DNA from: Proteobacteria bacterium UBA6503
Lineage (GTDB): Bacteria; Pseudomonadota; Alphaproteobacteria; UBA1280; UBA6503
Direction of reading: 5' to 3'
DNA length: 64,000 bases
Assembly (NCBI GenBank): GCA_002436405.1
Contig: DJLZ01000001.1
Location: 782,001 to 846,000, forward strand
Every line of letters starts with the position of its first letter. Position 1 is the stretch's first letter. The notes under the pieces were generated by a model that did not search any database, had not been told where the DNA came from, and worked only from the letters and a program-made list of their open reading frames with translations. Of this stretch, positions 12,285 to 64,000 are shown one piece after another. A program made the position numbers and the translations under genes.

Positions 12285-12451
12285 AATCTGGCAAAGCCTT
12301 TTTTGTTATTTGTGTAAGTACCCATATTCTAATGGTAGACACCACGAAAATAAAATGACACTTACCCTGACAGGCGTTTATAGGTCGAATTTTGCTAAAC
12401 CCTTGTGTATACTATACATCATTAATCTAATTTAACGTTGAGGCCGCACCA

Positions 12452-13840
12452 ATGGTTGACCCTTTTAAAACCGCAACTGAACACCTTGAAGATGTTGCCC
12501 TAAGCCGCACTTTTGGCAAGGTTGTGGGGGTTTCTGGGTTGGTGATTCAGTGTGAAGGCCTTGACGATACAGCCATTGGCAGCCGCTGCCTTGTTCAAAC
12601 CCGCCAGAATGATGAATTTACAGCCGAAGTGGTTGGCTACAAAGATGGCCAAGTACTGCTGATGCCATTTGCACCCATCGAAGGCGTGGGTCCAGGTTGC
12701 CGTGTGTACACCCTTTCTGACCAGCCTGTTATTAAAGTGAATAACAGCTTCATTGGCCGTGTGATCGATGGCCTTGGTAACCCTATTGATGGCAAAGGCC
12801 CTATTGCTTTGGGTGGCGAAAGTCGCCAACTAAAAGCTGCGCCACCAGCCCCAGGCATGCGTAAGCCTATTGGTAAAAAGCTTGATGTGGGCGTACGTGC
12901 CCTTAATACATTTATTCCGCTTTGCCGTGGCCAGCGTATGGGTATCTTCTCAGGCTCTGGTGTTGGTAAATCAACCCTGCTGGGGATGATTGCCAAATTT
13001 GCTGATGCAGAAGTGAACGTGATTGCCCTAACCGGTGAGCGTGGCCGTGAGGTGATGGAGTTTATCCATAACAGCCTAGGTGAAGAAGGCTTGCGTAAGT
13101 CAGTTGTGGTTGTAGCAACAGGTGATGAGCCACCACTGATGCGCCGTCAGGCCGCATTTACAGCCATGGCTGTTGCCGAATACTTTCGTGATTGCGGATT
13201 CCAATGTTTGATGATGATGGACTCAGTGACTCGTTTTGCAATGGCTCAGCGTGAAATTGGCCTATCAGCAGGCGAACCACCAACCACCCGTGGTTACACA
13301 CCATCAGTATTCTCAGAGCTTCCACGCCTTCTTGAGCGTGCAGGCACCTGTGAAGGTAAGGGGACAATTACAGGACTGTTTACCGTGCTTGTAGAAGGTG
13401 GAGACCTTGATGAACCTGTGGCGGATGCTGTACGTGGTATTTTGGATGGTCACATCGTGCTCGACCGTGCGCTGGCTGAACAAGGGCACTTTCCCTCAAT
13501 TAATATTCTAAAGTCAGTTTCACGTGCGATGCCGCAGTGTAATACCGCTGAAGAAAATAAATTGGTAACCATGGCTCGCCGTCATTACGCGACTTTTGAC
13601 AACATGGCTGAGCTTATTCGCTTGGGTGCCTACAAGAAGGGCAGCGATAGCGATGTTGATACCGCTATTTTCTATCATGATTCCCTCGAGAAGTTTTTAA
13701 CCCAAGAGCCTGAAGAGTCAGCCTCAATGGATGGGGGCTATAACGCCCTTGCTGAAATTTTGGGTGAGGAAGCACCAGCAACACCAGCTGATGGGCAAGA
13801 TGATACTCAACCTAATGATAAAGCGCCTCAGGAAGCCTAA
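12452..13840 (+). CDS. fliI: Flagellum-specific ATP synthase FliI
   Basis: Walker A 'GSGVGKST'. F1/T3SS-ATPase fold. Followed by fliJ. Confidence 0.93.
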   Translation: MVDPFKTATEHLEDVALSRTFGKVVGVSGLVIQCEGLDDTAIGSRCLVQTRQNDEFTAEVVGYKDGQVLLMPFAPIEGVGPGCRVYTLSDQPVIKVNNSFIGRVIDGLGNPIDGKGPIALGGESRQLKAAPPAPGMRKPIGKKLDVGVRALNTFIPLCRGQRMGIFSGSGVGKSTLLGMIAKFADAEVNVIALTGERGREVMEFIHNSLGEEGLRKSVVVVATGDEPPLMRRQAAFTAMAVAEYFRDCGFQCLMMMDSVTRFAMAQREIGLSAGEPPTTRGYTPSVFSELPRLLERAGTCEGKGTITGLFTVLVEGGDLDEPVADAVRGILDGHIVLDRALAEQGHFPSINILKSVSRAMPQCNTAEENKLVTMARRHYATFDNMAELIRLGAYKKGSDSDVDTAIFYHDSLEKFLTQEPEESASMDGGYNALAEILGEEAPATPADGQDDTQPNDKAPQEA

Positions 13841-13845
13841 CCTCT

Positions 13846-14274
13846 ATGGCGGACACAATCAAAACACTTGATAACCTTGTGCGTTTAGCCAAAAAAAACG
13901 TTGAGGATATTCAAAAGCAAATCGCTGAAGTGCAAACCGCTATTGAAGGCCACGTGCTGAAAATCCGCAGTCTACAAAAGAAGATTGAAGACGAGGGCGA
14001 GGCCGCTGGCACTGACCCTATGCTTTTAACAGCCCTTTCACGCTTTACCGAAAAGACCGAAAAAGACATTAAAGAGCGTCAAGGCAAAGTGCAGGCGCTG
14101 CGTCAACACGAAGCACAGCTGCGCGACCAGTTGACTGAAGAGTTTGCCACTCAAAAACGCTATGAAATTTTGTATGAACGCAAGCTACTAGAAGAAAAGC
14201 AGCGTATTCAAAAAGCCCAGCAAGACCAACTGGACGAAGTTGCTGCAACTAGCCAGCGTAATAAAATTTCATAA
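13846..14274 (+). CDS. fliJ: Flagellar export protein FliJ
   Basis: 142 aa all-coiled-coil protein immediately after fliI. Confidence 0.8.
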   Translation: MADTIKTLDNLVRLAKKNVEDIQKQIAEVQTAIEGHVLKIRSLQKKIEDEGEAAGTDPMLLTALSRFTEKTEKDIKERQGKVQALRQHEAQLRDQLTEEFATQKRYEILYERKLLEEKQRIQKAQQDQLDEVAATSQRNKIS

Positions 14275-14363
14275 TATAACAACCGCCTACTTGAATATAC
14301 CATGTGCGCCCCCTATAAAAAGGGGGTGTGTTATGGTAACCTATTCAAAAATAAGAGAAAATA

Positions 14364-15467
14364 ATGCCTAAAGTTGTTATTGTATCAGGAACTCGTCCAG
14401 AGGTTGTAAAGCTTGCGCCAGTGTTGCAGGCCTTGCGTAATATTCCAACGTTAACTGCCGAATGGCATAGTACTGGCCAACACCGCGAAATGCTTGACCA
14501 GGCCGAGGCTGTTTTTGGGATTACACCAGATGCTGACTTTGACGTTATGCAGCCAAACCAAACACCGCTTGATGTTGTGACCCGTATTTCAAAAGAGCTT
14601 GAGCAACATTGGAGTAAAGATAAGCCCGACTTTGTTGTGGTCCAGGGTGATACTGCCACAACGTTTGCTGCAGCATTAACAGCGTTTTACATGCGCATTC
14701 CGGTCGGCCACGTTGAGGCTGGCTTGCGGAGTTACAACCCGCAAGAGCCATTCCCCGAAGAAGCGCACCGCCGCATGATTGGGCCTCTAACAACATTGCA
14801 CTTCCCGCCGACGGCTATGTCGCAGCGCAATTTGGTGATGGAACACTTTGCCCCTGAAGATATTCATACTGTAGGCAATACCGTGGTAGATGCCTTGCTC
14901 AGCATTCCTGATGATCCTGAATTTGTGGTTGGCGATAATGTTGACCCCAATAAACGCCTTATTTTGGTAACGGCACACCGCCGTGAGAACCACCAACAGC
15001 TAACTGATATTTGCAAAGCACTGAAGCAAATTCGTGATGCAAACGATGATGTGGAAATTGTCTTCCCTGTTCACCTAAACCCTAATGTACGGAAGGTGAC
15101 TGACGCTGAACTTAAGGATGAAGAGCGTATTCACCTGCTTGACCCTATGGGATACTTTGATTTTGTGCAGCTGATGCGCCGTGCTCAGCTTATTCTGACA
15201 GACAGTGGTGGCATTCAAGAAGAAGCCCCAACTTACAAGATCCCGACCCTTGTTTTACGCCGCCAAACCGAGCGCCCTGAAGCGGTAAACGCAGGCATGG
15301 CACGCCTTGTGGGGACGGACACTAAAACAATTGTAGATAATGCAAACGAATTGCTGCAAAATGCAGATTCATACGACGCAATGCGTAAGGGTGAGAACCC
15401 CTTTGGGGATGGCCTAAGCGGCCAACGAATTGCCGAGATTATTAATGATTTTCTAGCTAAAGGCTAA
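14364..15467 (+). CDS. wecB: UDP-N-acetylglucosamine 2-epimerase (non-hydrolysing); WecB/NfrC homolog
   Basis: 'KVVIVSGTRPEVVKLAPV...HVEAGLRS...DSGGIQEEAP' epimerase signature. Confidence 0.88.
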   Translation: MPKVVIVSGTRPEVVKLAPVLQALRNIPTLTAEWHSTGQHREMLDQAEAVFGITPDADFDVMQPNQTPLDVVTRISKELEQHWSKDKPDFVVVQGDTATTFAAALTAFYMRIPVGHVEAGLRSYNPQEPFPEEAHRRMIGPLTTLHFPPTAMSQRNLVMEHFAPEDIHTVGNTVVDALLSIPDDPEFVVGDNVDPNKRLILVTAHRRENHQQLTDICKALKQIRDANDDVEIVFPVHLNPNVRKVTDAELKDEERIHLLDPMGYFDFVQLMRRAQLILTDSGGIQEEAPTYKIPTLVLRRQTERPEAVNAGMARLVGTDTKTIVDNANELLQNADSYDAMRKGENPFGDGLSGQRIAEIINDFLAKG

Positions 15468-15471
15468 CGCA

Positions 15472-17157
15472 TTGCTACTCATCGACTTTGTTGCATTTTA
15501 TATGTTCTTCCTTAAAGGCCTGTTGGTCTTTACGGCGACGGTTATTATTATCTCAAGCCTTGATGACTTGTTTTTTGACCTTGTATATTGGGTACGTGTG
15601 ACCCACCGCTGGTTTGTGTTCCGTCATAAGTATAAGCCGCTTGAGGCTGAGGCCTTGTTTGTGCCAGCACAAAAGCCTTTTGCTGTTATGGTGCCTGCCT
15701 GGCAAGAGAGTGACGTTATTGCCCATATGGTCAACAACACGCTGCGTACGTTTGACTATGACAACTACCAGATTTTTATCGGGTGCTACAAAAACGACCC
15801 CGCCACCCAAGCCGAAGCCGATAAACTGGCAGAACAATACCCACAAGTACATAAAGTGGTGGTGCCACACGATGGCCCAACCTGTAAGGCTGACTGCCTA
15901 AACTGGCTGATTCAGGGTGTGAAACTTCAAGAGAAAAAGCAAGGCGAAGAGTTTGCTGGCATCGTGATGCACGATGCTGAAGATGTTGTGCACCGCCTAG
16001 AGCTACGCCTTTTTAACCACCTTGTTGATCGTAAAGACCTTATGCAGCTGCCTGTATTTTCGCTTGAGCGTAAATGGTACGAGTTTACTGCCGGCCACTA
16101 CATTGACGAATTTGCTGAAGCCCATACAAAAGATATGCTCGTCCGTGAAGAGCTTATTGGCGAAGTGCCAAGCGCTGGTGTGGCAACGTGTTTTTCACGC
16201 CGTGCAATTGAAGCTCTGGCTGCTGAGAATAACAACATCGTCTTTAACACCGATAGCCTGACTGAAGACTATGACATTAGCTTCCGTCTAAAGTCATTGG
16301 GGATGAGTCAAATTTTCTTACGTTATGGGGTGATGGCCACCATACGTAAAACCTCGCCATTTACGGGCAAGGTGCGTACGGTGCGCCAACGCGATTACGT
16401 TGCCACGCGTGAGTACTTCCCGAACAGCATTACAACAGCTAAGCGCCAAAAGTCTCGCTGGATTTTGGGGATTGTGTTTCAAGGGTGGCGCACCATGGGC
16501 TGGCACGGCAATATTGTGATGCGCTATGTGCTGTTCCGTGACCGTAAGGCGCTGATTACATCGCTTGCCACATTCTGCGCCTACTTTATTTTTGCGAACA
16601 TTTTAACGCTACGTACGCTTGATTACCTGTTTGGTGATGCCTACCAATTCCCAAGTATTGTTGAGATTGGTACATTCCCTTGGTGGTTGATTCTGTTTAA
16701 CATCTTCTTTTTAGCAAACCGTATCTTCCACCGTATGTTGTTTACCACACGCATCTACGGGTGGGAGCAGGGCTTGTTGTCATTCCCACGCATGATTGTG
16801 GGGAACTACGTTAACTTTTTGGCAACGTCACGTGCGCTACGCTTGTTTATTATGCATGTGTTCTTTGGCCAAAAATTGGTGTGGGATAAAACCGACCACG
16901 CATATCCTTCGGCTGATGAGCTGGCCCACATGAAGCAACGCTTGGGTGAGCTGCTTATTGAGCGTCGCCTGATTACACAGCATGCGCTGGCACAAGCTTT
17001 GAAAAAGCAAAAAGATGCGAAACGCCCACTGGGTGAAATTTTGCTTGATATGGAAGCGATTACAATTGACGATTTGGCCAATGCCCTTGCCCAAAACCTT
17101 GGCATTTCTGTAGGTGAGGCACGCCAAAAACTTACTGCAAAGGAAGCGACAGCATAA
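15472..17157 (+). CDS. nfrB: NfrB-like membrane-anchored family-2 glycosyltransferase with a C-terminal MshEN (T2SSE_N-like) c-di-GMP-binding domain
   Basis: N-terminal TM helices. GT2 core ('VMVPAWQESDVIAHMV...VVVPHDGPTCKADCLNW...VMHDAEDVVH'). C-terminal tandem MshEN motif ('RLGELLIERRLITQHALAQAL...PLGEILLDMEAITIDDLANALAQNLGI'). TTG start at 15472 (alternative ATG at 15502). Confidence 0.8.
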   Translation: MLLIDFVAFYMFFLKGLLVFTATVIIISSLDDLFFDLVYWVRVTHRWFVFRHKYKPLEAEALFVPAQKPFAVMVPAWQESDVIAHMVNNTLRTFDYDNYQIFIGCYKNDPATQAEADKLAEQYPQVHKVVVPHDGPTCKADCLNWLIQGVKLQEKKQGEEFAGIVMHDAEDVVHRLELRLFNHLVDRKDLMQLPVFSLERKWYEFTAGHYIDEFAEAHTKDMLVREELIGEVPSAGVATCFSRRAIEALAAENNNIVFNTDSLTEDYDISFRLKSLGMSQIFLRYGVMATIRKTSPFTGKVRTVRQRDYVATREYFPNSITTAKRQKSRWILGIVFQGWRTMGWHGNIVMRYVLFRDRKALITSLATFCAYFIFANILTLRTLDYLFGDAYQFPSIVEIGTFPWWLILFNIFFLANRIFHRMLFTTRIYGWEQGLLSFPRMIVGNYVNFLATSRALRLFIMHVFFGQKLVWDKTDHAYPSADELAHMKQRLGELLIERRLITQHALAQALKKQKDAKRPLGEILLDMEAITIDDLANALAQNLGISVGEARQKLTAKEATA

Positions 17158-19175
17158 TGCGCACATTTGTTCTAACAGCTTTAACTTTAAGTGTTTTTGC
17201 AACAGGGCTTCATGCCCTGCCTGAGGTTGCTCATGCTGAAAGCTCACTTGCGAACTTTCGCTCATACCCCCTAGCAAGCCGTGGCTATAACCTAATTGAG
17301 CAGCGCCGTTATGAAGATGCTCGTAAAATGTTTGAGCGTGCCGTACAAATTATGCCCTCAAACATCGACTACCGCTTGCAGCTGGCAAACTTGCTGGTGA
17401 CTGAAAAGCGCTTTGCTAAAGCGCACCAAGTGGTGCTTGAAGGCCTAAAGCTTACACCAAACCACCGTGGTTTGATTGTGCTTGAAGATAATCTACGCAA
17501 AGAACTTGCCGCCCTTGAGGTGAACTTACCTCCATTGCCTGAAGACCCTAACGCCAAGGCACGTTTTATTACGTCGCCGTATACCGAGCGTCAACGTGCT
17601 GTTGTTGAAAGTACAGTGGATGGTCAGCTTGCAGGCTCAAGTTCTGAAAGCTACTGCGAAACATTGCTTACCGATAGCTATAACGACCTCGCCGATAGCG
17701 CTGCCTTAAATGCGGGCTACTGCGCACTAGATGCAAAAGAAAACGCTAAGGCTATTAAACTTTTTGAAAATGCAAGCTACAGCAAAGATAGTGCTATTGC
17801 GGTGCAGGCGTTAAACCAGTTGGGCTTTATTTACACCGATAAAAACCAACACGCTAAAGCCGCCCAATACTGGCGCAAGTCAGTGGCGATGGAGCCGAAC
17901 ACCGGGATTGAGATTAACATTGCCCGTGCGTACCGCCTATCAGGCGAGCTAGAAAAGGCCCATAAGGCCCTTACACCTATTGCTGAGGGTACTGACACTA
18001 CCGCCGAGAATAAAGTGGCTGCAATGCGCGAATTGGCCCTTATGTTTGATGACCAAGACAATACCCCCGAAGCCTATGAAGCAGGCGAAGACATTATTGC
18101 CCTCAAACCTATTGCCTCAGATTATTACTACCAAGCTTTGCGCGCCCAACGTATGGGTGATTATGACCAAGCGCTAGACTACCTAGAGCAGGCCAACCAA
18201 ATGCAGCCCGATACATTTATTTACATGTACAGCCTTGCTTATGCCTACCGAGCCGATGGCCAGTTTGAGAATGCAGCCAACATGTTTGAAAAAGCATTGG
18301 GTAAAGAAGACTCAACCGACCTGCGCCTTGACTATGCCTACAGCCTTAAAGAAATTGGCGAGCGTAAAAAGGCTGCCGAGCAGTTTGTGATTGTGCAAAA
18401 CCAAATTGATGATGTTGAAAAAGAAGACCCTATGCGCCGCGAAGTGCGTGATCTGAACCGTGAATGGACGACTTTCGGCAGCATTAGTTACCGTGATGGT
18501 GTTTACAGCGGTATCGATTCAACAGGTTCGCAGCTTTATGACGATAGCTTCCAGTACGGTATCGAAACTGTATATAGCCCTGAAAAATGGCAGCGTAATG
18601 GCCGCCGTGTTCAGCTTTACGGTCAAATTTTTGCGTCATCTGATAGCAGCACGTTTAACTGGAACCAAGACTCAACCCAAGGGGCTATTGGTGCCCGCGT
18701 TACACCACTGCGAGATACCGAGTGGTACCTTTACATCGCACGTCTTGTGGCACTGGGTGATGATGCTCTAAACGATACGCAACTACGTACGACATTTAGC
18801 AACACCGATGGCTTTGAGTACGAGGCCACCGAAAACGATTGGGAATATAAGTTCTTTAACGTTGATTTGTCATACCTGATTGAAGAAGACCAAATCTTTG
18901 CAACATCTGAAGCCCGCTATGGTCGCTCATACAAACGAGGGACTGACCTTGTGTTGACGCCGCACGTGGTGCTTGCAGGCTCAGTAATTGAAAATGACAT
19001 CCGTGACAGCCAAAACCTTGAGGCAGGCTTAGGTGTGAGTGCTAAGCTTTGGAAAGGGGAAACGGAAACCCAATACCCCGATAAAAGCCTTGAGCTTATT
19101 GTGCAGTGGCGCCAACCCATTAGCAGTGACGATAATAAATCAGGCCCATTTATCCGCCTTGTGGGCCAGTTTTAA
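17157..19175 (+). CDS. nfrA: NfrA-like outer-membrane protein: signal peptide, N-terminal TPR array, C-terminal beta-barrel ending in Phe
   Basis: ATG overlaps the nfrB stop (taATGc). Signal peptide 'MRTFVLTALTLSVFATGLHALPEVAHA'. TPR-like repeats in residues ~40-400. The C-terminal ~270 aa have an alternating hydrophobic pattern ending in '...IRLVGQF'. Confidence 0.7.
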   Translation: MRTFVLTALTLSVFATGLHALPEVAHAESSLANFRSYPLASRGYNLIEQRRYEDARKMFERAVQIMPSNIDYRLQLANLLVTEKRFAKAHQVVLEGLKLTPNHRGLIVLEDNLRKELAALEVNLPPLPEDPNAKARFITSPYTERQRAVVESTVDGQLAGSSSESYCETLLTDSYNDLADSAALNAGYCALDAKENAKAIKLFENASYSKDSAIAVQALNQLGFIYTDKNQHAKAAQYWRKSVAMEPNTGIEINIARAYRLSGELEKAHKALTPIAEGTDTTAENKVAAMRELALMFDDQDNTPEAYEAGEDIIALKPIASDYYYQALRAQRMGDYDQALDYLEQANQMQPDTFIYMYSLAYAYRADGQFENAANMFEKALGKEDSTDLRLDYAYSLKEIGERKKAAEQFVIVQNQIDDVEKEDPMRREVRDLNREWTTFGSISYRDGVYSGIDSTGSQLYDDSFQYGIETVYSPEKWQRNGRRVQLYGQIFASSDSSTFNWNQDSTQGAIGARVTPLRDTEWYLYIARLVALGDDALNDTQLRTTFSNTDGFEYEATENDWEYKFFNVDLSYLIEEDQIFATSEARYGRSYKRGTDLVLTPHVVLAGSVIENDIRDSQNLEAGLGVSAKLWKGETETQYPDKSLELIVQWRQPISSDDNKSGPFIRLVGQF

Positions 19176-19196
19176 TAAAAAAGCTTAAAAAAAGCA

Positions 19197-19237
19197 GAGG
19201 GTTGTATACAGTTTTTGTTGCAACCCTTTGTTTTTTG
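19197..19237 (+). terminator. Rho-independent terminator after nfrA
   Basis: gagggttg-(16 nt loop)-caaccct followed by ttgttttttg. Confidence 0.7.
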
Positions 19238-19305
19238 CGTATCATGCAGTCAAACACTCTATCTTTCTTTCCCTTTTCTTAAGACATCCCACAGGAGAAC
19301 TACTT

Positions 19306-19659
19306 ATGTTCGACTTCCGTTCGCTTGCCGTGTTTTTCGGCGCTTTCATTGTTTCGATGTTCACTGGTCCCATGCTCGGCGCCATGATCGGCCTCGCCGG
19401 CGTTATCGCCGCTGTTGCCGCCCCCAAGGTGCTGAATGTCATTTCGGCAACGCCGTATGCCCAGTACCTGACCTTCACGTTCTTCGCCGTACTGTTCGCA
19501 CTGACCGGCTCGACCGTGCTGGCCGTTCTCGCCTTCGTCGCGATGGGCCTGGCGCCTGCAGGCATGGGTCTGATCATCGTCGACTTCGCGCTGTTCTTCG
19601 GCTTCTACATCGGCCTGATCAGCTACGTCTTCCCGAAGATGATTCAGCCGAAGCTGTAA
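19306..19659 (+). CDS. Orphan small membrane protein (117 aa, ~3 TM) with anomalously GC-rich codon usage
   Basis: AGGAGA RBS 7 nt upstream of the ATG. Third codon positions are almost all G/C (ctc/gcc/ggc/ttc), whereas flanking genes prefer A/T-ending codons. All six frames are open across it. Terminators lie on both sides. Confidence 0.6.
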   Translation: MFDFRSLAVFFGAFIVSMFTGPMLGAMIGLAGVIAAVAAPKVLNVISATPYAQYLTFTFFAVLFALTGSTVLAVLAFVAMGLAPAGMGLIIVDFALFFGFYIGLISYVFPKMIQPKL

Positions 19660-19674
19660 TCAGCCTTTAACGAA

Positions 19675-19715
19675 TAAAAACACCCCAGCTTTTTGCTGGG
19701 GTGTTTTTTGTTTTT
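19675..19715. terminator. Bidirectional rho-independent terminator
   Basis: aaaa-acaccccagc-ttttt-gctggggtgt-tttttg. Serves the GC-rich gene (+) and the convergent minus-strand operon. Confidence 0.8.
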
Positions 19716-19724
19716 CTAATAGCT

Positions 19725-20126
19725 TTAGTTTTCGATAGCGGGGGGGCCAGGTTGGTTATGGCGCACTTCAAAACTTTCAACCATGCCATCATGCTCAATA
19801 TCAAGATGCAGCGTCAGGGCGTAGGGTAGGCCGTGGTCATAAAGGTCACCCGCTACATCGTGGGCAAAAGCACTGGCTGAAGGCCAGCTTTGGCTAATCA
19901 CATGCTCAAGGTAGGCATTCATGCTTTTGGCCGAGAATGTGTTTTTCTCGGGCTGGTAAATCACATATAAAATTGCGGGGCACTGTGCGCCATCAATATG
20001 GAGTGTACATTCTTTTTCAACGCCAATATCGGTCACAGCACCTTGGCCATGATGCTCTAGCAGGTCGAGCATTTTTTGGCGGTGCTGGCGTTGTTCCGCT
20101 GGGCTAAGTTCTTGTAGGTTAGACAT
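19725..20126 (-). CDS. Hypothetical protein (133 aa), last gene of the flhA-flhF-tag-fliK'-cheR operon
   Basis: ATG at 20126 with a GGAGA RBS, overlapping the cheR stop by 8 nt (the longer ORF to 20237 would lie inside cheR). No recognisable domain. Confidence 0.5.
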   Translation of the reverse strand: MSNLQELSPAEQRQHRQKMLDLLEHHGQGAVTDIGVEKECTLHIDGAQCPAILYVIYQPEKNTFSAKSMNAYLEHVISQSWPSASAFAHDVAGDLYDHGLPYALTLHLDIEHDGMVESFEVRHNQPGPPAIEN

Positions 20127-20994
20127 GTAATTTCTCCGTCCCAGCTGGGGCCTTATGGTAGGCAAAGGCACTGGCCAGTTTGTTATCGGCTTTAAAAATG
20201 TGCTTATAGGCGTATAGGTTTTCTGAGTGGCCAACAATCAAAAGGCTGTCATCGTCCATGGTATCGTAGATATTCCAAAGTACTTGCTCTTTTGACTTAT
20301 CATCAAAGTAAATCAGCACGTTGCGGCAAATCACTACATCAAACTTACCAAGGCGGCGAATCTCAGAAGGTTCTTTTAAGTTTGCAGGCTTAAAGGTGGC
20401 AAACTTTTTGATTTCATCACTGATTTTTGAGGTTTGCTCATCCACTTGCGTAAAGTATTTACTCATCATATCAGCGGGGATGTTACGAATAGCATATTTA
20501 CTATAAACACCGGCTTGTGCATCACGGATAGACTGCTGCGAGATGTCAGTCCCCACAAATTCCCAGTTAATGTCGGTCCAGTTGTTTTTAAGCACCTGCA
20601 AAATGGTGGTGTAAACCTCGTCTCCGGTTGAGCAAGCTGCACTCCAAATACGGATGCGTTTATTCCCTGAAAGGCGCTTGGCGTTTACAAGCGGCGTTAA
20701 AATATCACGCTCAAAGGCGTTCAGCTGCGGCTCATTACGGAAGAAGAAGGTTTCATGGATGGTAATGGCATCTACAAAATGGGGCAGTTCACCGTGGCGC
20801 TGGGGGCCTGAGGTAATGTAGTTGAAATAATCTTGTGCTGAGCTTAACCCTAAAGCTTCACAGCGGCGGCCAACTTTTGAAGCAATAAAGTAGTTTTTAT
20901 TATCTTCAAAGCGAATGCCCGTATGGTCGTAGATAAAATCTACGTACTTTTTAAACAGTTCGGGTTCAACCGAAGGGCGGGCTGTGGCGTCCAT
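20119..20994 (-). CDS. cheR: Chemotaxis protein methyltransferase CheR
   Basis: CheR N-terminal helical domain plus SAM-dependent methyltransferase domain ('DIRIWSAACSTGDEVYT'). Confidence 0.9.
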   Translation of the reverse strand: MDATARPSVEPELFKKYVDFIYDHTGIRFEDNKNYFIASKVGRRCEALGLSSAQDYFNYITSGPQRHGELPHFVDAITIHETFFFRNEPQLNAFERDILTPLVNAKRLSGNKRIRIWSAACSTGDEVYTTILQVLKNNWTDINWEFVGTDISQQSIRDAQAGVYSKYAIRNIPADMMSKYFTQVDEQTSKISDEIKKFATFKPANLKEPSEIRRLGKFDVVICRNVLIYFDDKSKEQVLWNIYDTMDDDSLLIVGHSENLYAYKHIFKADNKLASAFAYHKAPAGTEKLHV

Positions 20995-21003
20995 TATTAT
21001 ATC

Positions 21004-23070
21004 TTAGGCCTCAACGTTTAATTGGTGTTCTGGAGCATCGTCAGTTATTGGGGCCAACATGTCGTGCAGTGGGTCGGTTTCAAAAAAGCTGACTGTTTCA
21101 ATTTGTAGGGTGCCGCGCAAGCCAACGGCTGAAAGGCTGTTTTGAACAAGCTCTTCTAGGCCTTTATGCTCAGCTTCGCTGATACCCTGCGTCATGCGGA
21201 TTTTAATATGCATCACGTCTTTGCCCTGCATTAAGCCATCAAGCTGGATGGGACCAAGCTCACTCATTTTAACATTCAAAACAAAGCGGAGTGAATCACC
21301 ATCGTCTGGGTTTTGCTTTTTGTGCTTACGCCAAAAAAAGCTGCCTTGCTGTAATGTTTGGTTTTGGTCATCAAGGTAGGGGAACATCAGCGCACGCCAA
21401 CCGTCAGGTGCATCTGGCTTTTGATGAAGGTTATTGAGCTGGGCAGCGTCTGACTGCAGCATACCATCAAGGCCAAGGGCACGTAGCATGTTCAGAACGT
21501 CATCACCAAAGAATGAGCGCATGTTTTGCGTTGTAATGCTATGGCTCAGCTGTAAAAGCTTCGGCAATAGTTTTTCATTGGCCTCGGGAAGCACGCTTTT
21601 TAGTTTTTCAGCCCCTTCAGGGTTGCTGTCTTCAAGGTTGCTCATGGCTTGGGCGAGGGTGTCCCATGACAGTGAAAAACGAAGCAGCGCGTTACTGCGG
21701 TCACTGCCCTTAGGCATCACAATATCTAGAATTTCAGCATGGCCATCAGGCATAATATGTACGCTGATATGACTACCCACAGGTAGCATGCGCTGTGCAA
21801 TAACAGGCGTACGTACATCTTTACCAAATTGCAAAATAACTTCACCGCCTGGGCGTTGTTCAACAACGGTACCCGTGGCAATTTGACCCACGCTAAGCTC
21901 AGGTGTTTTGGCAGCAATTGACCCTTGTTGGCTTGACTGTTGTGCCCCTGTTTGCTGGGTTTGGCGGGCAGCAGCATCTTGCTGTGATTGATGCTCAGGG
22001 TTACGGCCTGCAACTGACTGTGGCGCACGAGCGCTTACGGTACTTAGTACCTCAAGCACGCCTGAGTCTGTAAAGCGAATAGCCATTTGTTGTACACCTT
22101 GTGAGTTTGAATTTTGGCCCGAACCTAACGTGCTTTGAAAGCCAAGCTGTTGCAGCGTTTGTTCAGGAATATCAAAGGTTAATAATACCCCATTTTGCAA
22201 CCCGATAGTAACGCTATTTGGTTGGAACTGCTGCACCGTCACAAGCTGTGGGCTTGTGTTACGTAGCAATGCCGTTGGAATAGGGCTTTGCGATTTAAGC
22301 TTTATAGGGGTGGGCAATAGCACGCGCCCTTCGGTGGTAAGTTTACCTGTGCCCTCAATAACCACCTGACGGGGGAATGACCCACGAGTTTCGTTGGTTA
22401 GCTCAGGCGCATCCGAAAGTGTGGCTTGCGGCAGTTGCGGTACGGGCAAGCGCAGCTTATCAATAACGGCTGTTTGGTTTTGGCCAATTTTTAAAACAAC
22501 TTCTGAGTTAACTTCAAACACAGGCGGCAGCAGCAACGTAAGTTGATGCCCGTTGGTAAGGTTCAAGGTTTGGCCACCACTTTGAGGGGGTGTGAGGGTA
22601 CGGCCCATCACGCTCATACCGGGGCTTGGCATAAAGATTGAGTTTTGTGGCCCGCTCATGTTTACACGAGGTGCCGTAAACTGAATGGTTTGTCCTTCTT
22701 TTGCCATAGCGTTTTTCGCAATATCGAGCAGCACTGAGGGCGTGCTTGAAGGGCGGATTTGCGCAGGCTGTTCAGGGGTTTTTGGTAGTAAAACACGCAA
22801 AATCTCTGGTGGTTGGTCGCCTTTCATTTGCAATAAAAGCTGACTGCCCGGAGGAATATTCTCAGGCACGTCAGCGGTAATGATTTGCCCTGATGGTAAC
22901 TGTAGCTGGGCTTGGCCATTGGCTGCTCGTTGTGCCAGAACCTCAACCTTCAATAAGCCTTGGCGGTGCTTAGGCGGGACGTCTTTCGCATTCTGCAATT
23001 GCTCGTTCTGCTTTTCACCACGGTCACGTGGCTCAAGCAAAATCAGCGTGTTCTGTGAGAGCAGTTGCAT
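21004..23070 (-). CDS. Second FliK-family protein: long Q/P/S/T-rich protein with a C-terminal Flg_hook (FliK C-terminal) domain
   Basis: C-terminus 'LRFVLNVKMSELGPIQLDGLMQGKDVMHIKIRMTQGISEAEHKGLEELVQNSLSAVGLRGTLQIETV' follows the FliK C-domain pattern. Compare the canonical fliK at 53651. Confidence 0.6.
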   Translation of the reverse strand: MQLLSQNTLILLEPRDRGEKQNEQLQNAKDVPPKHRQGLLKVEVLAQRAANGQAQLQLPSGQIITADVPENIPPGSQLLLQMKGDQPPEILRVLLPKTPEQPAQIRPSSTPSVLLDIAKNAMAKEGQTIQFTAPRVNMSGPQNSIFMPSPGMSVMGRTLTPPQSGGQTLNLTNGHQLTLLLPPVFEVNSEVVLKIGQNQTAVIDKLRLPVPQLPQATLSDAPELTNETRGSFPRQVVIEGTGKLTTEGRVLLPTPIKLKSQSPIPTALLRNTSPQLVTVQQFQPNSVTIGLQNGVLLTFDIPEQTLQQLGFQSTLGSGQNSNSQGVQQMAIRFTDSGVLEVLSTVSARAPQSVAGRNPEHQSQQDAAARQTQQTGAQQSSQQGSIAAKTPELSVGQIATGTVVEQRPGGEVILQFGKDVRTPVIAQRMLPVGSHISVHIMPDGHAEILDIVMPKGSDRSNALLRFSLSWDTLAQAMSNLEDSNPEGAEKLKSVLPEANEKLLPKLLQLSHSITTQNMRSFFGDDVLNMLRALGLDGMLQSDAAQLNNLHQKPDAPDGWRALMFPYLDDQNQTLQQGSFFWRKHKKQNPDDGDSLRFVLNVKMSELGPIQLDGLMQGKDVMHIKIRMTQGISEAEHKGLEELVQNSLSAVGLRGTLQIETVSFFETDPLHDMLAPITDDAPEHQLNVEA

Positions 23071-23084
23071 AATCAGTTAATACC

Positions 23085-23681
23085 TTACAGGCCGTACTTT
23101 TGGCCTTTAGTTTGTTCAATAATTTCAGTGTAACGCGGGCAGGTGGTTAGATGGTCATTCACCATGCCACTGGCCTGCATGTGGGCATACATAACCGTAG
23201 GGCCTAAAAACTTAAAACCACGTTTTTTAAGGTCCTTACTAATAGCTAATGCAAGATCCGTGACAGCTGGGACATCTGCCATAGTTTTTGGCGCATTATT
23301 TAGAGGTTTATGATCCATAAACTGCCAAAGGTAGGTACTAAAGCGGCCAAATTCTTTCTGCACTTCTAAAAAACGCTGGGCGTTGTTTATGGTTGCATCA
23401 ATTTTAAGGCGGTTCCGCACAATGCCAGCATCGGCCAGTAGGCGCTGTTTATCAGCGTCCGTAAACTGGGCAACTTTTACAGGGTCAAATTGGGCAAAGG
23501 CTTTACGAAAGTTTTCACGCTTTTTAAGGATGGTTAACCAGCTTAAACCAGCTTGAAAAGCCTCAAGGCTTAGAAACTCAAAAAAGCGCTGGTCGTCATC
23601 AACGGGTACGCCCCATTCTTGATGGTGGTATTGCTCATAAATATCATGGCCTACGCACCAAGGGCATACCGCTTTCGTCAT
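23085..23681 (-). CDS. tag: DNA-3-methyladenine glycosylase I
   Basis: Collinear with E. coli Tag ('YHHQEWGVPVDDDQRFFEFLSLEAFQAGLSWLTILKKRENFRKAF...KKRGFKFLGPTVMYAHMQASGMVNDH'). Confidence 0.9.
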   Translation of the reverse strand: MTKAVCPWCVGHDIYEQYHHQEWGVPVDDDQRFFEFLSLEAFQAGLSWLTILKKRENFRKAFAQFDPVKVAQFTDADKQRLLADAGIVRNRLKIDATINNAQRFLEVQKEFGRFSTYLWQFMDHKPLNNAPKTMADVPAVTDLALAISKDLKKRGFKFLGPTVMYAHMQASGMVNDHLTTCPRYTEIIEQTKGQKYGL

Positions 23682-47332: not shown

Positions 47333-48019
47333 ATGGCAAAGCAACTTAAAGATAAAGCAAAAGGTGGGGACAGTAGCGGTACTATTGTACTGATGTTGGG
47401 TCTGTACCTTATTTTGCTGGCTTTCTTTATTTTGCTGAATGCAATTTCAGAAGTGGCGATTGATAAGTTTGAGCGTGCGAGCCAAAGTATTGCCTCAGGG
47501 TTTGGTTTTCGTGCCGCACAAACTGTTATTAAAGACGACCCCGACGAAGCCCTTGTGAACGAGTTTTACGAGAAAATTGCCGATGACATTCAAGAGGTAT
47601 TCTCGGCGTATATTTCAAACAGTCAGTTTGAAGTTGAAAGCACCCGCGACACCATGATTGTGCGCCTTCGTGCCCCCGCCTTTTTTGATGAAGGCGAGTG
47701 GAAGATTATCTCAAGCCAAGCCTCATTCTTTACCGACCTTGCTGATTTGATGAATGAAAAACGCCCCGGTGCGCGCATTATTTTGGATATTCGTGTGCCT
47801 AGCAGCATTGAAGAGGCACCTGACCCGGTTGAACTTAATGGCCTGCGCGCAAGCCAATTTGCCCGTGCCCTTGATGAGCGTGGCGTAAACTCAAACTTTA
47901 TTACCTCGGCCGTAACAGAACAAGAAGGTGACCGTATTGTGTTGCTCTTCACCACACAAATTATTGACCGTGTTGCCGTTGTGGCTCAAGCCCGAATTGA
48001 CAGTAAGGGAGGGAAGTAA
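47333..48019 (+). CDS. MotB-like membrane protein with a degenerate OmpA-like C-terminal region
   Basis: N-terminal TM similar to the MotB plug/TM region. C-terminus ('GLRASQFARALDERGVNSNFITSAVTEQE') is a weak OmpA-like pattern. Immediately upstream of motB. Confidence 0.55.
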   Translation: MAKQLKDKAKGGDSSGTIVLMLGLYLILLAFFILLNAISEVAIDKFERASQSIASGFGFRAAQTVIKDDPDEALVNEFYEKIADDIQEVFSAYISNSQFEVESTRDTMIVRLRAPAFFDEGEWKIISSQASFFTDLADLMNEKRPGARIILDIRVPSSIEEAPDPVELNGLRASQFARALDERGVNSNFITSAVTEQEGDRIVLLFTTQIIDRVAVVAQARIDSKGGK

Positions 48020-48021
48020 CT

Positions 48022-48732
48022 ATGCCTCTCCGTAAAAAAAGTGGCCCACCGTCAGATGCTTGGCTTGTGACTTTTGCCGACCTTGTGAGCTTGCTTATTA
48101 CATTTTTCGTGTTGTTATTCTCAATGAAAAACATCAACACCCAACGCTGGCAGGATATTCGTGGTGCGCTTTCGGGTGCTCTTGCCTTTGAAGAAATTAA
48201 CCAGCAAAACGTTGATACCGACAACATTGAAACCATTAACATTACCCAAGCAGATGACCTAACTTACCTCAAGGCTATTTTGGGGCAGCGCTTTAAAAGC
48301 GATGATGTTTTAAAAGAAGCCACCATGGTGATCCGTGACCGTGGTGATGAGCTTCGCATTACGGTGCCTAGCCGTTTGCTGTTCAAAACAGGCTCAGCAA
48401 GCCTAATGCCGCAAGGGGATGATGCCATTGGCCGCCTTGGCGATATGCTACGTAATATTGATAACAGTATTATTATTGCAGGCCACACTGACCCTGTGCC
48501 GATTCAAGGTGGGGTATACGAAAGCAACTGGGAACTTTCAATGTTGCGTGCCGTAGGTGTGCTTAAAAAGTTACGGGCCACAGGTGTTGTTTCACCTATG
48601 CAGGCGCTAGGTTATGCAGATAGCCGGTTTGATATGATACAATCAGACTTACCGGTTACAATGCGTTACCTCAAAGCGCGACGTGTTGAAATTATTATCG
48701 GTAAGGCAACAACCAACCAAAGGTTACCGTAA
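48022..48732 (+). CDS. motB: Flagellar stator protein MotB
   Basis: TM with the conserved Asp ('WLVTFADLVSLLITFFVLLF') plus OmpA-like peptidoglycan-binding domain ('IIIAGHTDPVPIQGGVYESNWELSMLRAVGV'). Confidence 0.88.
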   Translation: MPLRKKSGPPSDAWLVTFADLVSLLITFFVLLFSMKNINTQRWQDIRGALSGALAFEEINQQNVDTDNIETINITQADDLTYLKAILGQRFKSDDVLKEATMVIRDRGDELRITVPSRLLFKTGSASLMPQGDDAIGRLGDMLRNIDNSIIIAGHTDPVPIQGGVYESNWELSMLRAVGVLKKLRATGVVSPMQALGYADSRFDMIQSDLPVTMRYLKARRVEIIIGKATTNQRLP

Positions 48733-62992: not shown

Positions 62993-63484
62993 TTATTTAA
63001 GGTGCATACGCATCTTAAGCGCCGTCATACCATCGGCGTAATAGTTAGGGGCAGTCGCAAAGGTGGTAAACCCTTTGTGGGTATAAAACTGGATAGCATG
63101 GGTATTGTCTTCACGAACTTCGAGGCGAAACTCAGTGATATTTAAAGCTTTAAGGTGCTGGCTTGCGGCTTCAAGCAGTTTGGCCGCAAGGCCCTTGCCT
63201 TGAAAATGCGGCGAAACAGCAATTGAATAAATACGCCCCATGTGCGGGCGGCCTTTATGTAGTAGCACCCAAATATAGCCTGCGGGTTGGCCTTCAAACT
63301 CAGCCATCAGTATGATGTTGCGGCCTTTTGTAAGCGCAGCACGAAATTGGCTTAGGTGAAAGCCATCGGTGGTAAAGCTTTGTTGTTCAATAGAGTTTAT
63401 AGCCGAGAGGTCAGCTAAAGTTGCGGTGCGTATAACGACAGTTTGGGCCGTAGCCTCAACTGTACCAAATGTTACGGTTGGCAA
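62993..63484 (-). CDS. GNAT family N-acetyltransferase (RimI-like)
   Basis: Acetyl-CoA binding motif 'IAVSPHFQGKGLAAKLLE'. Immediately upstream of the ATP-grasp gene. Confidence 0.85.
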   Translation of the reverse strand: MPTVTFGTVEATAQTVVIRTATLADLSAINSIEQQSFTTDGFHLSQFRAALTKGRNIILMAEFEGQPAGYIWVLLHKGRPHMGRIYSIAVSPHFQGKGLAAKLLEAASQHLKALNITEFRLEVREDNTHAIQFYTHKGFTTFATAPNYYADGMTALKMRMHLK

Positions 63485-64000
63485 ACGCGGTTGCGGCCTC
63501 CACGCTTAGCTGCGTAAAGTTGCTCATCGGTTGAAACGATAAGTGCTTCGGCTGTTGTAGGCTCATCTTGGTGGGCCGTGCGCACACCAACTGAGATTGT
63601 AATCGGGAAGGGTTGTTCTTCTGCTTTAAAGAAGTTTTCAACGTTCTGGCGCAGACGCTCAGCAAAAATGAAGGCGGCTTGTTGCTCAACTTCAGGCAAA
63701 ATAATGGCAAACTCTTCACCACCGTAACGGGCGGCGGTATCCATCAAACGGACTTGTTGGCGCAGTACGTCCGCCACTTGGCGAAGTACGCGGTCACCCT
63801 CGGCGTGGCCGTAGGTGTCGTTCACTTTTTTAAAGTGGTCAATGTCAAACATCACAAGGCTAATAGGGCTACCGTAACGCATTTGGCGCTCAAGCTCTTC
63901 TTTGAGGCGGTGCTTAAAGCTTGTTTGGTCAAACAAACCAGTGAGGCCATCACGTGTGGCCACGTTGGCAAGCGAGGCCATTTTAGTTTCTTCAATAATG
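63472..64000 (-). CDS. GGDEF-domain diguanylate cyclase, C-terminal part (5' end lies beyond the window)
   Basis: 'DIDHFKKVNDTYGHAEGDRVL...RYGGEEFAIILP' GGDEF with the RxxD I-site context. The ORF runs off the window end. Confidence 0.85.
   Translation of the reverse strand, partial: IIEETKMASLANVATRDGLTGLFDQTSFKHRLKEELERQMRYGSPISLVMFDIDHFKKVNDTYGHAEGDRVLRQVADVLRQQVRLMDTAARYGGEEFAIILPEVEQQAAFIFAERLRQNVENFFKAEEQPFPITISVGVRTAHQDEPTTAEALIVSTDEQLYAAKRGGRNRVCQP

What the first reader, a model, noticed from the sequence alone, without database searches (positions are those of the whole stretch)
14364..19175. Complete nfrC(wecB)-nfrB-nfrA-type module in one operon, directly after fliI-fliJ
In E. 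coli, phage N4 adsorption needs three components. NfrC is the UDP-GlcNAc 2-epimerase WecB. NfrB is an inner-membrane GT2 with a C-terminal c-di-GMP-binding MshEN domain. NfrA is an outer-membrane TPR/beta-barrel protein. Together they make and export a ManNAc-based exopolysaccharide. In E. coli, wecB sits apart in the ECA cluster. Here the three are contiguous and translationally coupled (the nfrA ATG overlaps the nfrB stop). They start 89 nt after fliJ and end at a strong terminator. The system is little characterised outside enterics. Its placement inside a polar-flagellum regulon suggests motility-coupled surface polysaccharide production, or a flagellum-proximal phage receptor. That placement and coupling appear undescribed.
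Basis: partly seen in the sequence, partly recalled or inferred. Interest (0 to 1): 0.82.

Follow-up and report, generated by a model that had tools for sequence, protein, structure and literature searches.

The report
Nfr-type polysaccharide cassette inside flagellar cluster
Three adjacent genes for making and exporting a surface sugar polymer (the Nfr system known from E. coli) are really there, wedged between flagellar operons of an uncultured marine bacterium, but this is a new member of an already described system, and only its location is new.

Summary
Window 14364-19175 encodes a non-hydrolysing UDP-GlcNAc 2-epimerase (WecB/NfrC, 367 aa), an NfrB-like membrane GT2 synthase (561 aa) and an NfrA-like TPR + beta-barrel outer-membrane protein (672 aa). 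The module starts 89 nt after fliJ, has a TAATG nfrB/nfrA overlap, and ends at a strong terminator.

The novelty claim is overstated. Junkermeier & Hengge 2021 (PMC8669469) already describe direct wecB-nfrB linkage in other bacteria. [quoted passage not shown]

What is new is modest:
- The cassette is physically inserted at the convergent fliIJ/cheR junction. This holds in one narrow clade only: three lineages with NfrB 77-100% identical. A FliI-73% relative lacks it, and none of 15 other nfr loci has flagellar neighbours.
- NfrB is a short form that keeps only the 53-residue c-di-GMP motif and has lost both turn glycines.
- There is no YbcH.
- The predicted barrel has 12 strands.

A promoter-like element conserved in the fliJ-wecB spacer suggests the cassette has its own promoter. 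Functional coupling to the flagellum is unproven.

The parts
12452..14274 (+). fliI (12452-13840) and fliJ (13846-14274). This is the upstream flagellar export ATPase operon, given as context and not part of the cassette.
   Evidence: FliI: TIGR03498 596 bits, above the cut-off of 587. FliJ: PF02050 37.5 bits, above the cut-off of 28.4.
14275..14363 (+). fliJ-wecB spacer. It holds a promoter-like element (CTTGAAT at about 14290, CCCCCTATAAA at about 14309-14319) that is conserved in the three lineages carrying the cassette. It also holds a hairpin at 14291-14348 that is specific to the window. There is no U-tract terminator.
   Evidence: In the alignment of three lineages, ACTTG.AT, CCC and ATA are invariant while the rest of the spacer diverges. 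The hairpin folds at -29.8 kcal/mol (z -5.1) in the window but is not significant in L020 or L021 (z -1.2 and +0.4). There is no sigma-28 or sigma-54 consensus in the spacer.
14364..15467 (+). wecB/nfrC: non-hydrolysing UDP-GlcNAc 2-epimerase, inferred to supply UDP-ManNAc.
   Evidence: TIGR00236 439 bits (cut-off 210); NeuC TIGR03568 only 108 bits (cut-off 236). PF02350 E 1.7e-111. Best solved relatives are E. coli WecB 1F6D and 1VGV at E 5e-101.
15472..17157 (+). nfrB-like inner-membrane processive GT2 synthase, short form of 561 aa.
   Evidence: 44% identical to E. coli NfrB over residues 4-544. NF012033 725 bits. D168, T264-E265-D266 and Q326-K-S-R-W330 are present and invariant in a 51-sequence alignment. 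AF2 model has pLDDT 85.4 and pTM 0.78. The closest solved folds are BcsA, hyaluronan synthase and chitin synthase.
16939..17097 (+). Region encoding the 53-residue tandem MshEN-type c-di-GMP motif of NfrB (aa 490-542: RLGELLIERRLITQHALAQALKKQ-KDAKR-PLGEILLDMEAITIDDLANALAQN).
   Evidence: NF053729 55.4 bits, above the cut-off of 38, at aa 490-541. phmmer against the PDB gives MshE N-domain 5HTL at E 2.3e-7 and PilF 6F8L at E 1.8e-12. The four helices 491-497, 503-516, 520-526 and 532-543 appear in the model. The motif is conserved across the short subfamily.
17157..19175 (+). nfrA-like outer-membrane exporter. Signal peptide aa 1-27 (17157-17237), TPR solenoid aa about 30-434 (17244-18458), 12-strand beta domain aa 435-672 (18459-19172), C-terminal Phe.
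19189..19238 (+). Intrinsic terminator closing the cassette. It looks bidirectional: A-run, stem, U-run.
   Evidence: -25 kcal/mol, z -5.68, 0 of 200 shuffles fold as well; sequence.
19306..19659 (+). 117-aa hydrophobic ORF with atypical GC3 of 0.81. It co-occurs with the cassette only in the flagellar-embedded clade. It is a separate transcription unit and probably not part of the Nfr machinery.
   Evidence: It has its own promoter-like site at 19218-19245 and its own terminator at 19676-19708.

Best explanation
This is a self-contained Nfr-type, synthase-dependent exopolysaccharide cassette.

How it most likely works (all inferred by homology):
- WecB converts UDP-GlcNAc to UDP-ManNAc.
- The NfrB-like GT2 synthase in the inner membrane polymerises a ManNAc-containing glycan.
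- The synthase is probably switched on when c-di-GMP binds its minimal C-terminal MshEN motif.
- The NfrA-like protein receives the polymer in the periplasm with its TPR solenoid and passes it through a C-terminal beta-barrel in the outer membrane.

The gene content, motifs, predicted folds and operon structure are shown here.

Where it sits: the cassette, together with a neighbouring 117-aa ORF, lies as an insertion at the junction of two convergent flagellar/chemotaxis operons. These are fliIJ on one side and orf133-cheR-orf688-tag-flhF-flhA on the other. The insertion is seen only in one narrow clade of an uncultured marine proteobacterium.

How it is expressed: it most likely has its own promoter in the fliJ-wecB spacer. 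Read-through from fliIJ is possible, because no conserved terminator separates them. The flagellar location may give some co-expression, echoing the FliA-dependent nfr operon of E. coli, but that is not shown.
For: Identity of the three genes:
- Family scores are above curated cut-offs.
- NfrB is 44% identical to EcNfrB. Every residue whose mutation abolished function in E. coli (D169, D267, W330, L490, G491, L537; PMC8669469) is conserved, here as D168, D266, W330, L491, G492 and L539.
- The NfrB model resembles BcsA, HAS and chitin synthase.
- The C-terminus matches the MshE-c-di-GMP structure 5HTL.
- The NfrA model shows a signal peptide, a TPR solenoid and a 12-strand barrel.
- WecB's closest solved relative is E. 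coli WecB.

The trio is a conserved unit: wecB-nfrB-nfrA are adjacent in all seven related loci L016-L022.

Insertion:
- L025 (FliI 73%, CheR 49%, orf688 32%, Tag) has fliJ overlapping the convergent orf133-like gene, with no cassette.
- L020 (NfrB 90%) and L021/L022/L024 (NfrB 77%, FliI 85%) keep fliJ-wecB-nfrB-nfrA-small ORF-orf133-cheR.

Own promoter and terminator.

Published precedent for linkage and flagellar co-regulation: PMC8669469.
Against: - No biochemical step is tested. The polymer is unknown even in E. coli.
- The MshEN module is reduced to the 53-residue core. Pfam PF05157 is not detected, whereas most of the 700-760-aa homologues listed carry it.
- Both turn glycines (MshE G18 and G47) are replaced, by R499 and E528. 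Each motif therefore fails the relaxed pattern of Wang et al. 2016 at position 10 (PMC5013675). E. coli NfrB motif 1 fails it too and still binds c-di-GMP.
- The strict NfrB and NfrA equivalog cut-offs are not reached: 646 against 1170, and 52.6 against 1223.
- No diguanylate cyclase is adjacent, unlike in L016 and L017. The nearest GGDEF ORF is 44 kb away.
- YbcH is absent.
- The NfrA model rests on a 7-sequence alignment.
- The promoter call is a consensus resemblance only.
Confidence: 0.72

Rival explanations
1. The flagellar placement is functional. The cassette is co-transcribed with fliIJ, or otherwise belongs to the flagellar regulon. Its polymer acts at the flagellated pole as a c-di-GMP-triggered motility brake or polar adhesin.
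For: - Same strand as fliIJ, an 89-nt gap, and no conserved terminator between fliJ and wecB.
- The arrangement is kept in three lineages whose synonymous sites are saturated (dS 1.3-2.9).
- In E. coli, nfrBA-ybcH is FliA-dependent and its product impedes motility at high c-di-GMP (PMC8669469).
Against: - The arrangement is restricted to one narrow clade. It is absent from L025.
- None of the 15 other nfr loci examined has flagellar genes within about 10 kb.
- The spacer has a conserved promoter-like element and no sigma-28 or sigma-54 consensus.
- The same cluster also carries an unrelated passenger gene, tag.
- Convergent operon junctions are permissive insertion sites (general knowledge).
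Confidence: 0.25
2. The short NfrB has lost c-di-GMP control. The truncated, glycine-less MshEN remnant is a structural relic, and the synthase is constitutive or regulated only at the level of transcription.
For: - Both turn glycines are lost. The motif-2 glycine is present in most long NfrBs but replaced throughout the ~560-aa subfamily.
- The C-terminal ~150-220 aa seen in long forms is missing.
- No adjacent DGC in the window.
Against: - The ligand-contacting positions are kept and are nearly invariant across the family: R/L/G of both motifs, the LxxxL pairs and Q513.
- The 53-residue motif HMM is passed at 55 bits against a cut-off of 38.
- According to Wang et al. 2016, the 53-residue unit is the complete binding domain.
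- Two short-form relatives have a GGDEF gene directly upstream of wecB.
- nfrB has dN/dS 0.028, so there is strong purifying selection.
Confidence: 0.2
3. The epimerase and glycosyltransferase serve flagellin glycosylation or a flagellar sheath or collar rather than a secreted exopolysaccharide.
For: Position next to flagellar genes. A weak TPR-level hit of NfrA to the flagellar collar protein FlcA (32 bits against a cut-off of 300).
Against: - The epimerase is the WecB type, not the hydrolysing NeuC type.
- The GT is a membrane-embedded processive synthase with TED and QxxRW motifs.
- The partner protein has an NfrA_C barrel.
- The same trio occurs without any flagellar genes in 4 of 4 subfamily relatives.
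Confidence: 0.02

Closest known systems
E. coli NfrB-NfrA-YbcH with WecB/NfrC (N4 glycan receptor / Nfr exopolysaccharide system; Junkermeier & Hengge 2021 PMC8669469; Sellner et al. 2021 PMC8669472)
   Same: GT2 synthase with the same catalytic residues, 44% identical. C-terminal tandem MshEN-type c-di-GMP motif. OM partner with signal peptide, TPR and NfrA_C. nfrB and nfrA overlap. The system depends on a WecB-type epimerase. There is a link with flagella, regulatory in E. coli and positional here.
   Different: NfrB is 561 aa against 745 aa. It lacks the ~200-aa C-terminal extension and both turn glycines. NfrA is 672 aa against 990 aa and only 23% identical in the C-terminal half. There is no YbcH. 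wecB is inside the operon instead of in the ECA cluster. No sigma-28-type promoter was recognised. The E. coli locus is not near flagellar genes.
wecB-linked nfr operons outside enterics (e.g. Pseudomonas soli SJ10, Fig. 7 of PMC8669469)
   Same: Direct genomic association of nfrC(wecB) with nfrB and nfrA. Some carry an associated GGDEF gene, as do relatives L016 and L017 here.
   Different: Those are described without a flagellar context. Here the cassette is embedded between fliIJ and cheR, in an uncultured marine lineage.
Synthase-dependent EPS systems Bcs (BcsA/BcsC) and Pga (PgaCD/PgaA)
   Same: An inner-membrane processive GT2 gated by c-di-GMP, plus an outer-membrane protein with a periplasmic TPR and a beta-barrel. 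The NfrB model's best solved matches are BcsA structures.
   Different: The c-di-GMP receptor is MshEN-type, not PilZ (Bcs) and not the PgaC-PgaD interface. NfrB has only about 3-4 predicted membrane helices. The predicted barrel has 12 strands, against the 16 I recall for BcsC and PgaA (from my own knowledge, not checked here). There is no polymer-modifying enzyme.
MshE N-terminal domain (V. cholerae, PDB 5HTL; Wang et al. 2016 PMC5013675)
   Same: Tandem 24-residue motifs with a 5-residue linker, 53 residues in all. RLG, LxxxL and Q positions are conserved.
   Different: It is fused to a glycosyltransferase rather than an ATPase. Position-10 glycines are replaced by R and E. Motif 2 starts PLG and ends QN.

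Membership tests
Nfr exopolysaccharide system (NfrB component) | [quoted passage not shown] | tested here: met
   D168 (= EcD169), T264-E265-D266 (= EcD267) and Q326-xx-R329-W330 are all invariant in the 51-sequence alignment. PF13641 and PF13632 are matched. The fold matches BcsA and HAS.
Nfr exopolysaccharide system (NfrB component) | Curated NCBIfam equivalog score for NfrB (NF008411, cut-off 1170) or its sister model NF012033 (cut-off 537) | tested here: inconclusive
   NF008411 scores 646 bits, below its cut-off. NF012033 scores 725 bits, above its cut-off. Both alignments stop at model position about 540, because the protein lacks the C-terminal third.
Nfr exopolysaccharide system (NfrB component) | C-terminal MshEN c-di-GMP-binding motif (two 24-residue repeats plus a 5-residue linker) | tested here: met
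   NF053729 scores 55.4 bits against a cut-off of 38 at aa 490-541. 5HTL is matched at E 2.3e-7. EcNfrB L490, G491 and L537 correspond to L491, G492 and L539. Caveat: position 10 of both repeats is not Gly/Ala/Ser.
Nfr exopolysaccharide system (NfrB component) | Full-length MshEN/T2SSE_N domain (Pfam PF05157) as in E. coli NfrB | tested here: not met
   No PF05157 hit. The protein ends 19 residues after the motif, whereas long homologues carry 140-220 further residues.
Nfr exopolysaccharide system (NfrB component) | Binds c-di-GMP and is activated by it | not testable with these tools
   Needs DRaCALA, ITC or MST on the purified C-terminus, plus an activity assay.
Nfr exopolysaccharide system (NfrA component) | Sec signal peptide, TPR repeats and the NfrA_C domain | tested here: met
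   PF13283 scores 84.9 bits against a cut-off of 25, covering model positions 6-172 of 173. Several TPR families exceed their gathering scores (TPR_2 77 bits vs 27, TPR_19 72 vs 25, TPR_12 56 vs 30), with weaker hits to many more. The N-terminus MRTFVLTALTLSVFATGLHALPEVAHA|ES looks like a signal peptide. E 9e-12 against E. coli NfrA. The strict equivalog NF007302 is not reached (52.6 against 1223).
Nfr exopolysaccharide system (NfrA component) | C-terminal outer-membrane beta-barrel | tested here: met
Nfr exopolysaccharide system (NfrC component) | Non-hydrolysing UDP-GlcNAc 2-epimerase (WecB), not NeuC | tested here: met
   TIGR00236 scores 439 bits against 210. NeuC scores 108 bits against 236. 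E. coli WecB structures are the best PDB hits.
Nfr exopolysaccharide system (accessory) | YbcH periplasmic accessory protein encoded in the operon | tested here: not met
   tblastn with EcYbcH finds no homologue in the 64-kb window or in L016-L022. Six of eleven distant loci do have one next to nfrA. YbcH is dispensable for N4 infection in E. coli.
Nfr exopolysaccharide system (regulation) | Expression under the flagellar sigma factor FliA (class 3), as in E. coli | tested here: inconclusive
   No TAAA-N15-GCCGATA-type site in the fliJ-wecB spacer. The consensus for this organism is unknown. Read-through from fliIJ cannot be excluded.
Nfr exopolysaccharide system (product and phage role) | ManNAc-based secreted polymer that serves as primary receptor for N4-like phages | not testable with these tools
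   Needs glycan analysis and phage assays. The organism is uncultured.

The most novel reading that the evidence does not exclude
The insertion is adaptive rather than incidental. In this marine lineage the Nfr cassette has been recruited into the flagellar gene cluster, so that flagellar gene expression primes the cell with a c-di-GMP-gated synthase. On surface contact or a c-di-GMP rise, the synthase extrudes a ManNAc polymer near the flagellated pole. The polymer would act as a brake or polar adhesin, a motile-to-sessile switch module analogous in logic to holdfast or UPP production. A 12-strand NfrA barrel and a minimal MshEN switch would be lineage-specific adaptations.
Probability: 0.12. 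Interest if true: 0.6.

Novelty: new member of a known kind. Interest (0 to 1): 0.3.

Why it matters
It extends the little-studied Nfr exopolysaccharide system to an abundant, uncultured marine proteobacterium. The same protein is seen on 18 contigs from several ocean metagenomes, Tara Oceans among them. The locus offers a compact natural minimal version: three genes, no YbcH, and a 53-residue c-di-GMP module. That could be useful for structural and biochemical work on how NfrB is gated. The positional link to flagellar genes echoes the regulatory link already shown in E. coli and gives a second, independent hint that Nfr polymers and motility are connected. N4-like phages are common in marine bacteria (my own knowledge), so the cassette is also a candidate receptor pathway for them. 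None of this overturns current understanding.

Tried and rejected
- The genome-contig scan with NfrB found only distant relatives (35-49% identity). It did not find the source organism or any close genome, so genome-level synteny was not available.
- The profile search with the NfrA alignment was swamped by generic TPR proteins and added no NfrA homologues. The NfrA model therefore rests on 7 sequences.
- The afdb50 library was unavailable.
- phmmer of the NfrA barrel region against PDB sequences found nothing significant.
- Rfam found no RNA family in the window.
- The sigma-54 scan with 2 mismatches was too noisy to use. The sigma-28 scan gave no site in the spacer.
- The striking hairpin in the fliJ-wecB spacer was considered as an attenuator or terminator. 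I rejected it as a conserved element because L020 and L021 do not fold significantly and it lacks a U-tract.
- A sigma-32-like reading of the conserved spacer motif (CTTGAA-N13-CCCCCT) gave the only hit in 64 kb. The pattern was chosen after seeing the sequence, and it equally fits sigma-70 (TTGAAT-17-TATAAA). I keep it only as a lead.
- My first Pfam query of the small ORF used the wrong frame (19215-19670). I repeated it on 19306-19659 and found no family.
Full report
**1. Observation**

- 14364-15467, 367 aa.
- 15472-17157, 561 aa. It starts at TTG, with AAGG 9 nt upstream. An in-frame ATG at codon 11 is the alternative start, and one Tara gene call used it.
- 17157-19175, 672 aa.

The junctions also check out:
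- fliJ ends at 14274, leaving an 89-nt spacer.
- wecB and nfrB are 4 nt apart.
- nfrB and nfrA share TAATG, preceded by AAGGAAG.
- Downstream of nfrA there is an A-run, a stem and a U-run. This hairpin folds at -25 kcal/mol (z -5.7; none of 200 shuffles folds as well).

**2. What the genes are**

*WecB.* It matches the non-hydrolysing epimerase equivalog TIGR00236 at 439 bits (cut-off 210). It matches the hydrolysing NeuC model at only 108 bits (cut-off 236). Its best solved relatives are E. coli WecB 1F6D and 1VGV, at E 5e-101.

*NfrB-like protein (561 aa).*
- It is 44% identical to E. coli NfrB over residues 4-544.
- It passes NF012033 (725 bits against 537) but not the strict NfrB equivalog (646 against 1170). 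This is because it lacks the last third of that model.
- Junkermeier & Hengge showed that mutating D169, D267, W330, L490, G491 or L537 abolishes E. coli NfrB function (PMC8669469). All six are conserved here, as D168, D266, W330, L491, G492 and L539. D168, D266, W330 and G492 are invariant, and the QxxRW positions Q326 and R329 with them, across 51 homologues.
- An AF2 model (pLDDT 85.4, pTM 0.78) finds BcsA cellulose synthase, hyaluronan synthases and chitin synthases as its best solved matches.

*The c-di-GMP motif.*
- Residues 490-542 form RLGELLIERRLITQHALAQALKKQ-KDAKR-PLGEILLDMEAITIDDLANALAQN. This is the tandem 24+5+24 MshEN motif.
- It passes NCBIfam NF053729 (55.4 bits against 38).
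- It matches the MshE-c-di-GMP crystal structure 5HTL (E 2.3e-7) and PilF GSPII domains.
- In the model it forms four helices.
- Wang et al. 2016 describe these 53 residues as the complete c-di-GMP-binding unit (PMC5013675).
- Two caveats apply. First, Pfam PF05157 is not detected and the protein ends 19 residues after the motif, whereas long NfrBs carry 140-220 more residues. Second, both turn glycines (MshE G18 and G47) are replaced, by R499 and E528.
- The motif-2 glycine is present in most long NfrBs and is replaced throughout the ~560-aa subfamily.
- E. coli NfrB also lacks the motif-1 glycine and still binds c-di-GMP at 1 uM. Binding here is therefore probable but not certain.

*NfrA-like protein (672 aa).*
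- It has a signal peptide (…EVAHA|ES), TPR repeats and an NfrA_C domain (PF13283, 84.9 bits against 25; model positions 6-172 of 173).
- It aligns collinearly with the C-terminal 379 residues of E. coli NfrA (23% identity, E 9e-12).
- The AF2 model was built from only seven sequences and has pLDDT 77.7, rising to about 80-90 in the C-terminal domain. It shows a TPR solenoid (aa 30-434) followed by 12 beta-strands (aa 437-671).
- The protein ends in Phe.

**3. Context and organism**

The same proteins occur in NCBI MAG records labelled 'Magnetococcales bacterium' (MBA44744-MBA44747) and in a Tara Oceans mesopelagic scaffold. The exact NfrB sequence is seen on 18 contigs, 14 of them longer than 0.2 Mb.

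Upstream lie housekeeping genes, including atpI-B-E-F and rpmE.

From cheW (11745) to flgE (57943) the window is one flagellar/chemotaxis supercluster. It contains cheW, fliIJ, cheR, flhF, flhA, a sigma-54 activator, motA, fliN, fliH-like, fliG, fliF, two flagellins, fliD, fliS, fliL, fliM, cheYZBA, motB-like genes, fliOP, fliK, flgD and flgE.

No GGDEF, EAL or PilZ gene is adjacent to the cassette. A GGDEF ORF lies at the window's right edge, 44 kb away.

**4. Is the flagellar placement conserved?**

It is conserved only within a narrow clade.
- The order (cheW) fliI-fliJ-wecB-nfrB-nfrA-small ORF-orf133-cheR is kept in L020 (NfrB 90%, FliI 92%).
- It is also kept in L021/L022/L024 (NfrB 77%, FliI 85%, FliJ 57-59%).
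- L025 is a relative with FliI 73%, FliJ 40%, CheR 49%, an orf688 homologue and Tag. There fliJ (1178-1606) overlaps the convergent orf133-like gene (1603-2004), and there is no cassette and no small ORF.

The cassette therefore occupies the junction of two convergent operons. It is most simply explained as an insertion in the ancestor of the window's clade.

Cassettes of the same short-NfrB subfamily at 59-70% identity (L016-L019) keep wecB-nfrB-nfrA tightly linked but sit in unrelated neighbourhoods. Two of them have a GGDEF gene directly upstream of wecB.

Eleven more distant loci from genomes (35-49% identity) show no FliI, FliJ, FlhA, FliF, FliG or flagellin homologue within about 10 kb. 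Six of them carry a YbcH homologue next to nfrA, which the window and its subfamily lack.

The E. coli locus is not near flagellar genes either.

**5. Transcription**

The fliJ-wecB spacer diverges between the three lineages, except for ACTTG(A/T)AT, a CCC(C) run and ATA(A), plus the A-rich ribosome-binding region.

This conserved part reads as a sigma-70-like promoter (TTGAAT-17-TATAAA). It also reads as a sigma-32-like one (CTTGAA-13-CCCCCT), and that pattern is the only such hit in the 64 kb. I chose the pattern after seeing the sequence, so it is only a lead.

No sigma-28 or sigma-54 consensus is present in the spacer.

The window's spacer also folds into a strong hairpin (-29.8 kcal/mol, z -5.1). 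It lacks a U-tract and is not conserved in L020 or L021.

The cassette therefore probably has its own promoter, and read-through from fliIJ is not blocked by any conserved terminator. Neither point can be settled computationally.

**6. Selection**

I compared the window with L020:

| Gene | dN/dS |
|---|---|
| fliI | 0.025 |
| nfrB | 0.028 |
| wecB | 0.105 |
| nfrA | 0.115 |

All four genes are under purifying selection. nfrA has dN 0.235 and 68% amino-acid identity, and its central TPR region is the most divergent structured part. NfrA evolves about three to four times faster than NfrB. That is expected for an envelope protein, and there is no sign of positive selection at this resolution.

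**7. Comparison with what is known**

Junkermeier & Hengge 2021 report the following:
- The Nfr system restrains motility in a pdeH ycgR background.
- Every species that has an NfrB homologue but no WecB in another pathway has a wecB homologue directly associated with nfrB.
- DGC genes are linked to nfr in pseudomonads.
- 1,705 of the homologues identified (given as 1,841 or 1,842) have a conserved MshEN domain.

Sellner et al. 2021 define the product as the N4 glycan receptor.

A full-text search found no paper combining NfrB with 'flagellar gene cluster'. The physical embedding thus appears unreported, although that library is incomplete.

**8. Verdict**

This is a genuine, complete Nfr-type cassette and a new member of a known kind. 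Its minor variant features are a short NfrB with a minimal, glycine-less MshEN motif, no YbcH, a predicted 12-strand barrel, and a clade-specific insertion into a flagellar cluster.

The mechanism is inferred by homology, with confidence about 0.7. Functional coupling to the flagellum is possible but unsupported beyond position, at about 0.25.

Noticed in passing
window 19306-19659 (+): A 117-aa, very hydrophobic ORF (about 4 TM segments) directly after the nfrA terminator. Its GC3 is 0.81, against 0.42-0.52 in neighbouring genes. It has its own promoter-like site and terminator, and no Pfam or NCBIfam family. Homologues sit at the same spot in L020 (GC3 0.86) and L021 (GC3 0.68), but not in cassette-free L025 and not beside the other nfr cassettes. 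dS against L020 is only 0.46, whereas neighbours are at 1.3-2.9. The composition and the constraint on synonymous sites are unexplained.
   Followed up: partly
window 21004-23070 (-): A 688-aa ORF between cheR and tag with no hit in Pfam or NCBIfam. It is conserved in the same position in L021/L022 (66-72% identity) and L025 (32%). It may be an uncharacterised component of this lineage's flagellar/chemotaxis cluster.
   Followed up: partly
window 23085-23681 (-): A DNA-3-methyladenine glycosylase I (Tag, PF03352) sits inside the flagellar cluster between orf688 and flhF, also in L025. It is a second non-flagellar passenger in the cluster.
   Followed up: no
window 12285-12451: The divergent cheW-fliI intergenic region is 90% identical between the window and L020, although synonymous sites of the flanking genes are saturated (dS above 1.3). 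That implies dense regulatory constraint. No clear sigma-54 or sigma-28 consensus was recognised.
   Followed up: partly
window 48733-51579 (+): A 948-aa TPR-rich protein immediately after two MotB-like genes (47333-48019 and 48022-48732). It gives only weak BamD/YbgF-type TPR hits. It may be a stator- or basal-body-associated periplasmic scaffold.
   Followed up: no
window 63472-63981 (-): A GGDEF diguanylate-cyclase domain ORF cut by the window end (PF00990, E 1e-47). It is the only c-di-GMP enzyme seen in the window, about 44 kb from nfrB.
   Followed up: no
window 20184-20208 (-): The only sigma-28-like site in the window within one mismatch that lies upstream of a gene: TATAAGCACATTTTTAAAGCCGATA. 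It sits in the 3' end of cheR, just upstream of the 133-aa ORF (19725-20126), which has no known family.
   Followed up: no
L016 7114-8826 and L017 7896-8801: In two relatives of the short-NfrB subfamily, a GGDEF gene lies directly upstream of wecB-nfrB-nfrA. In L016 it is fused to an EamA membrane domain. This parallels the DGC linkage reported for pseudomonads.
   Followed up: no
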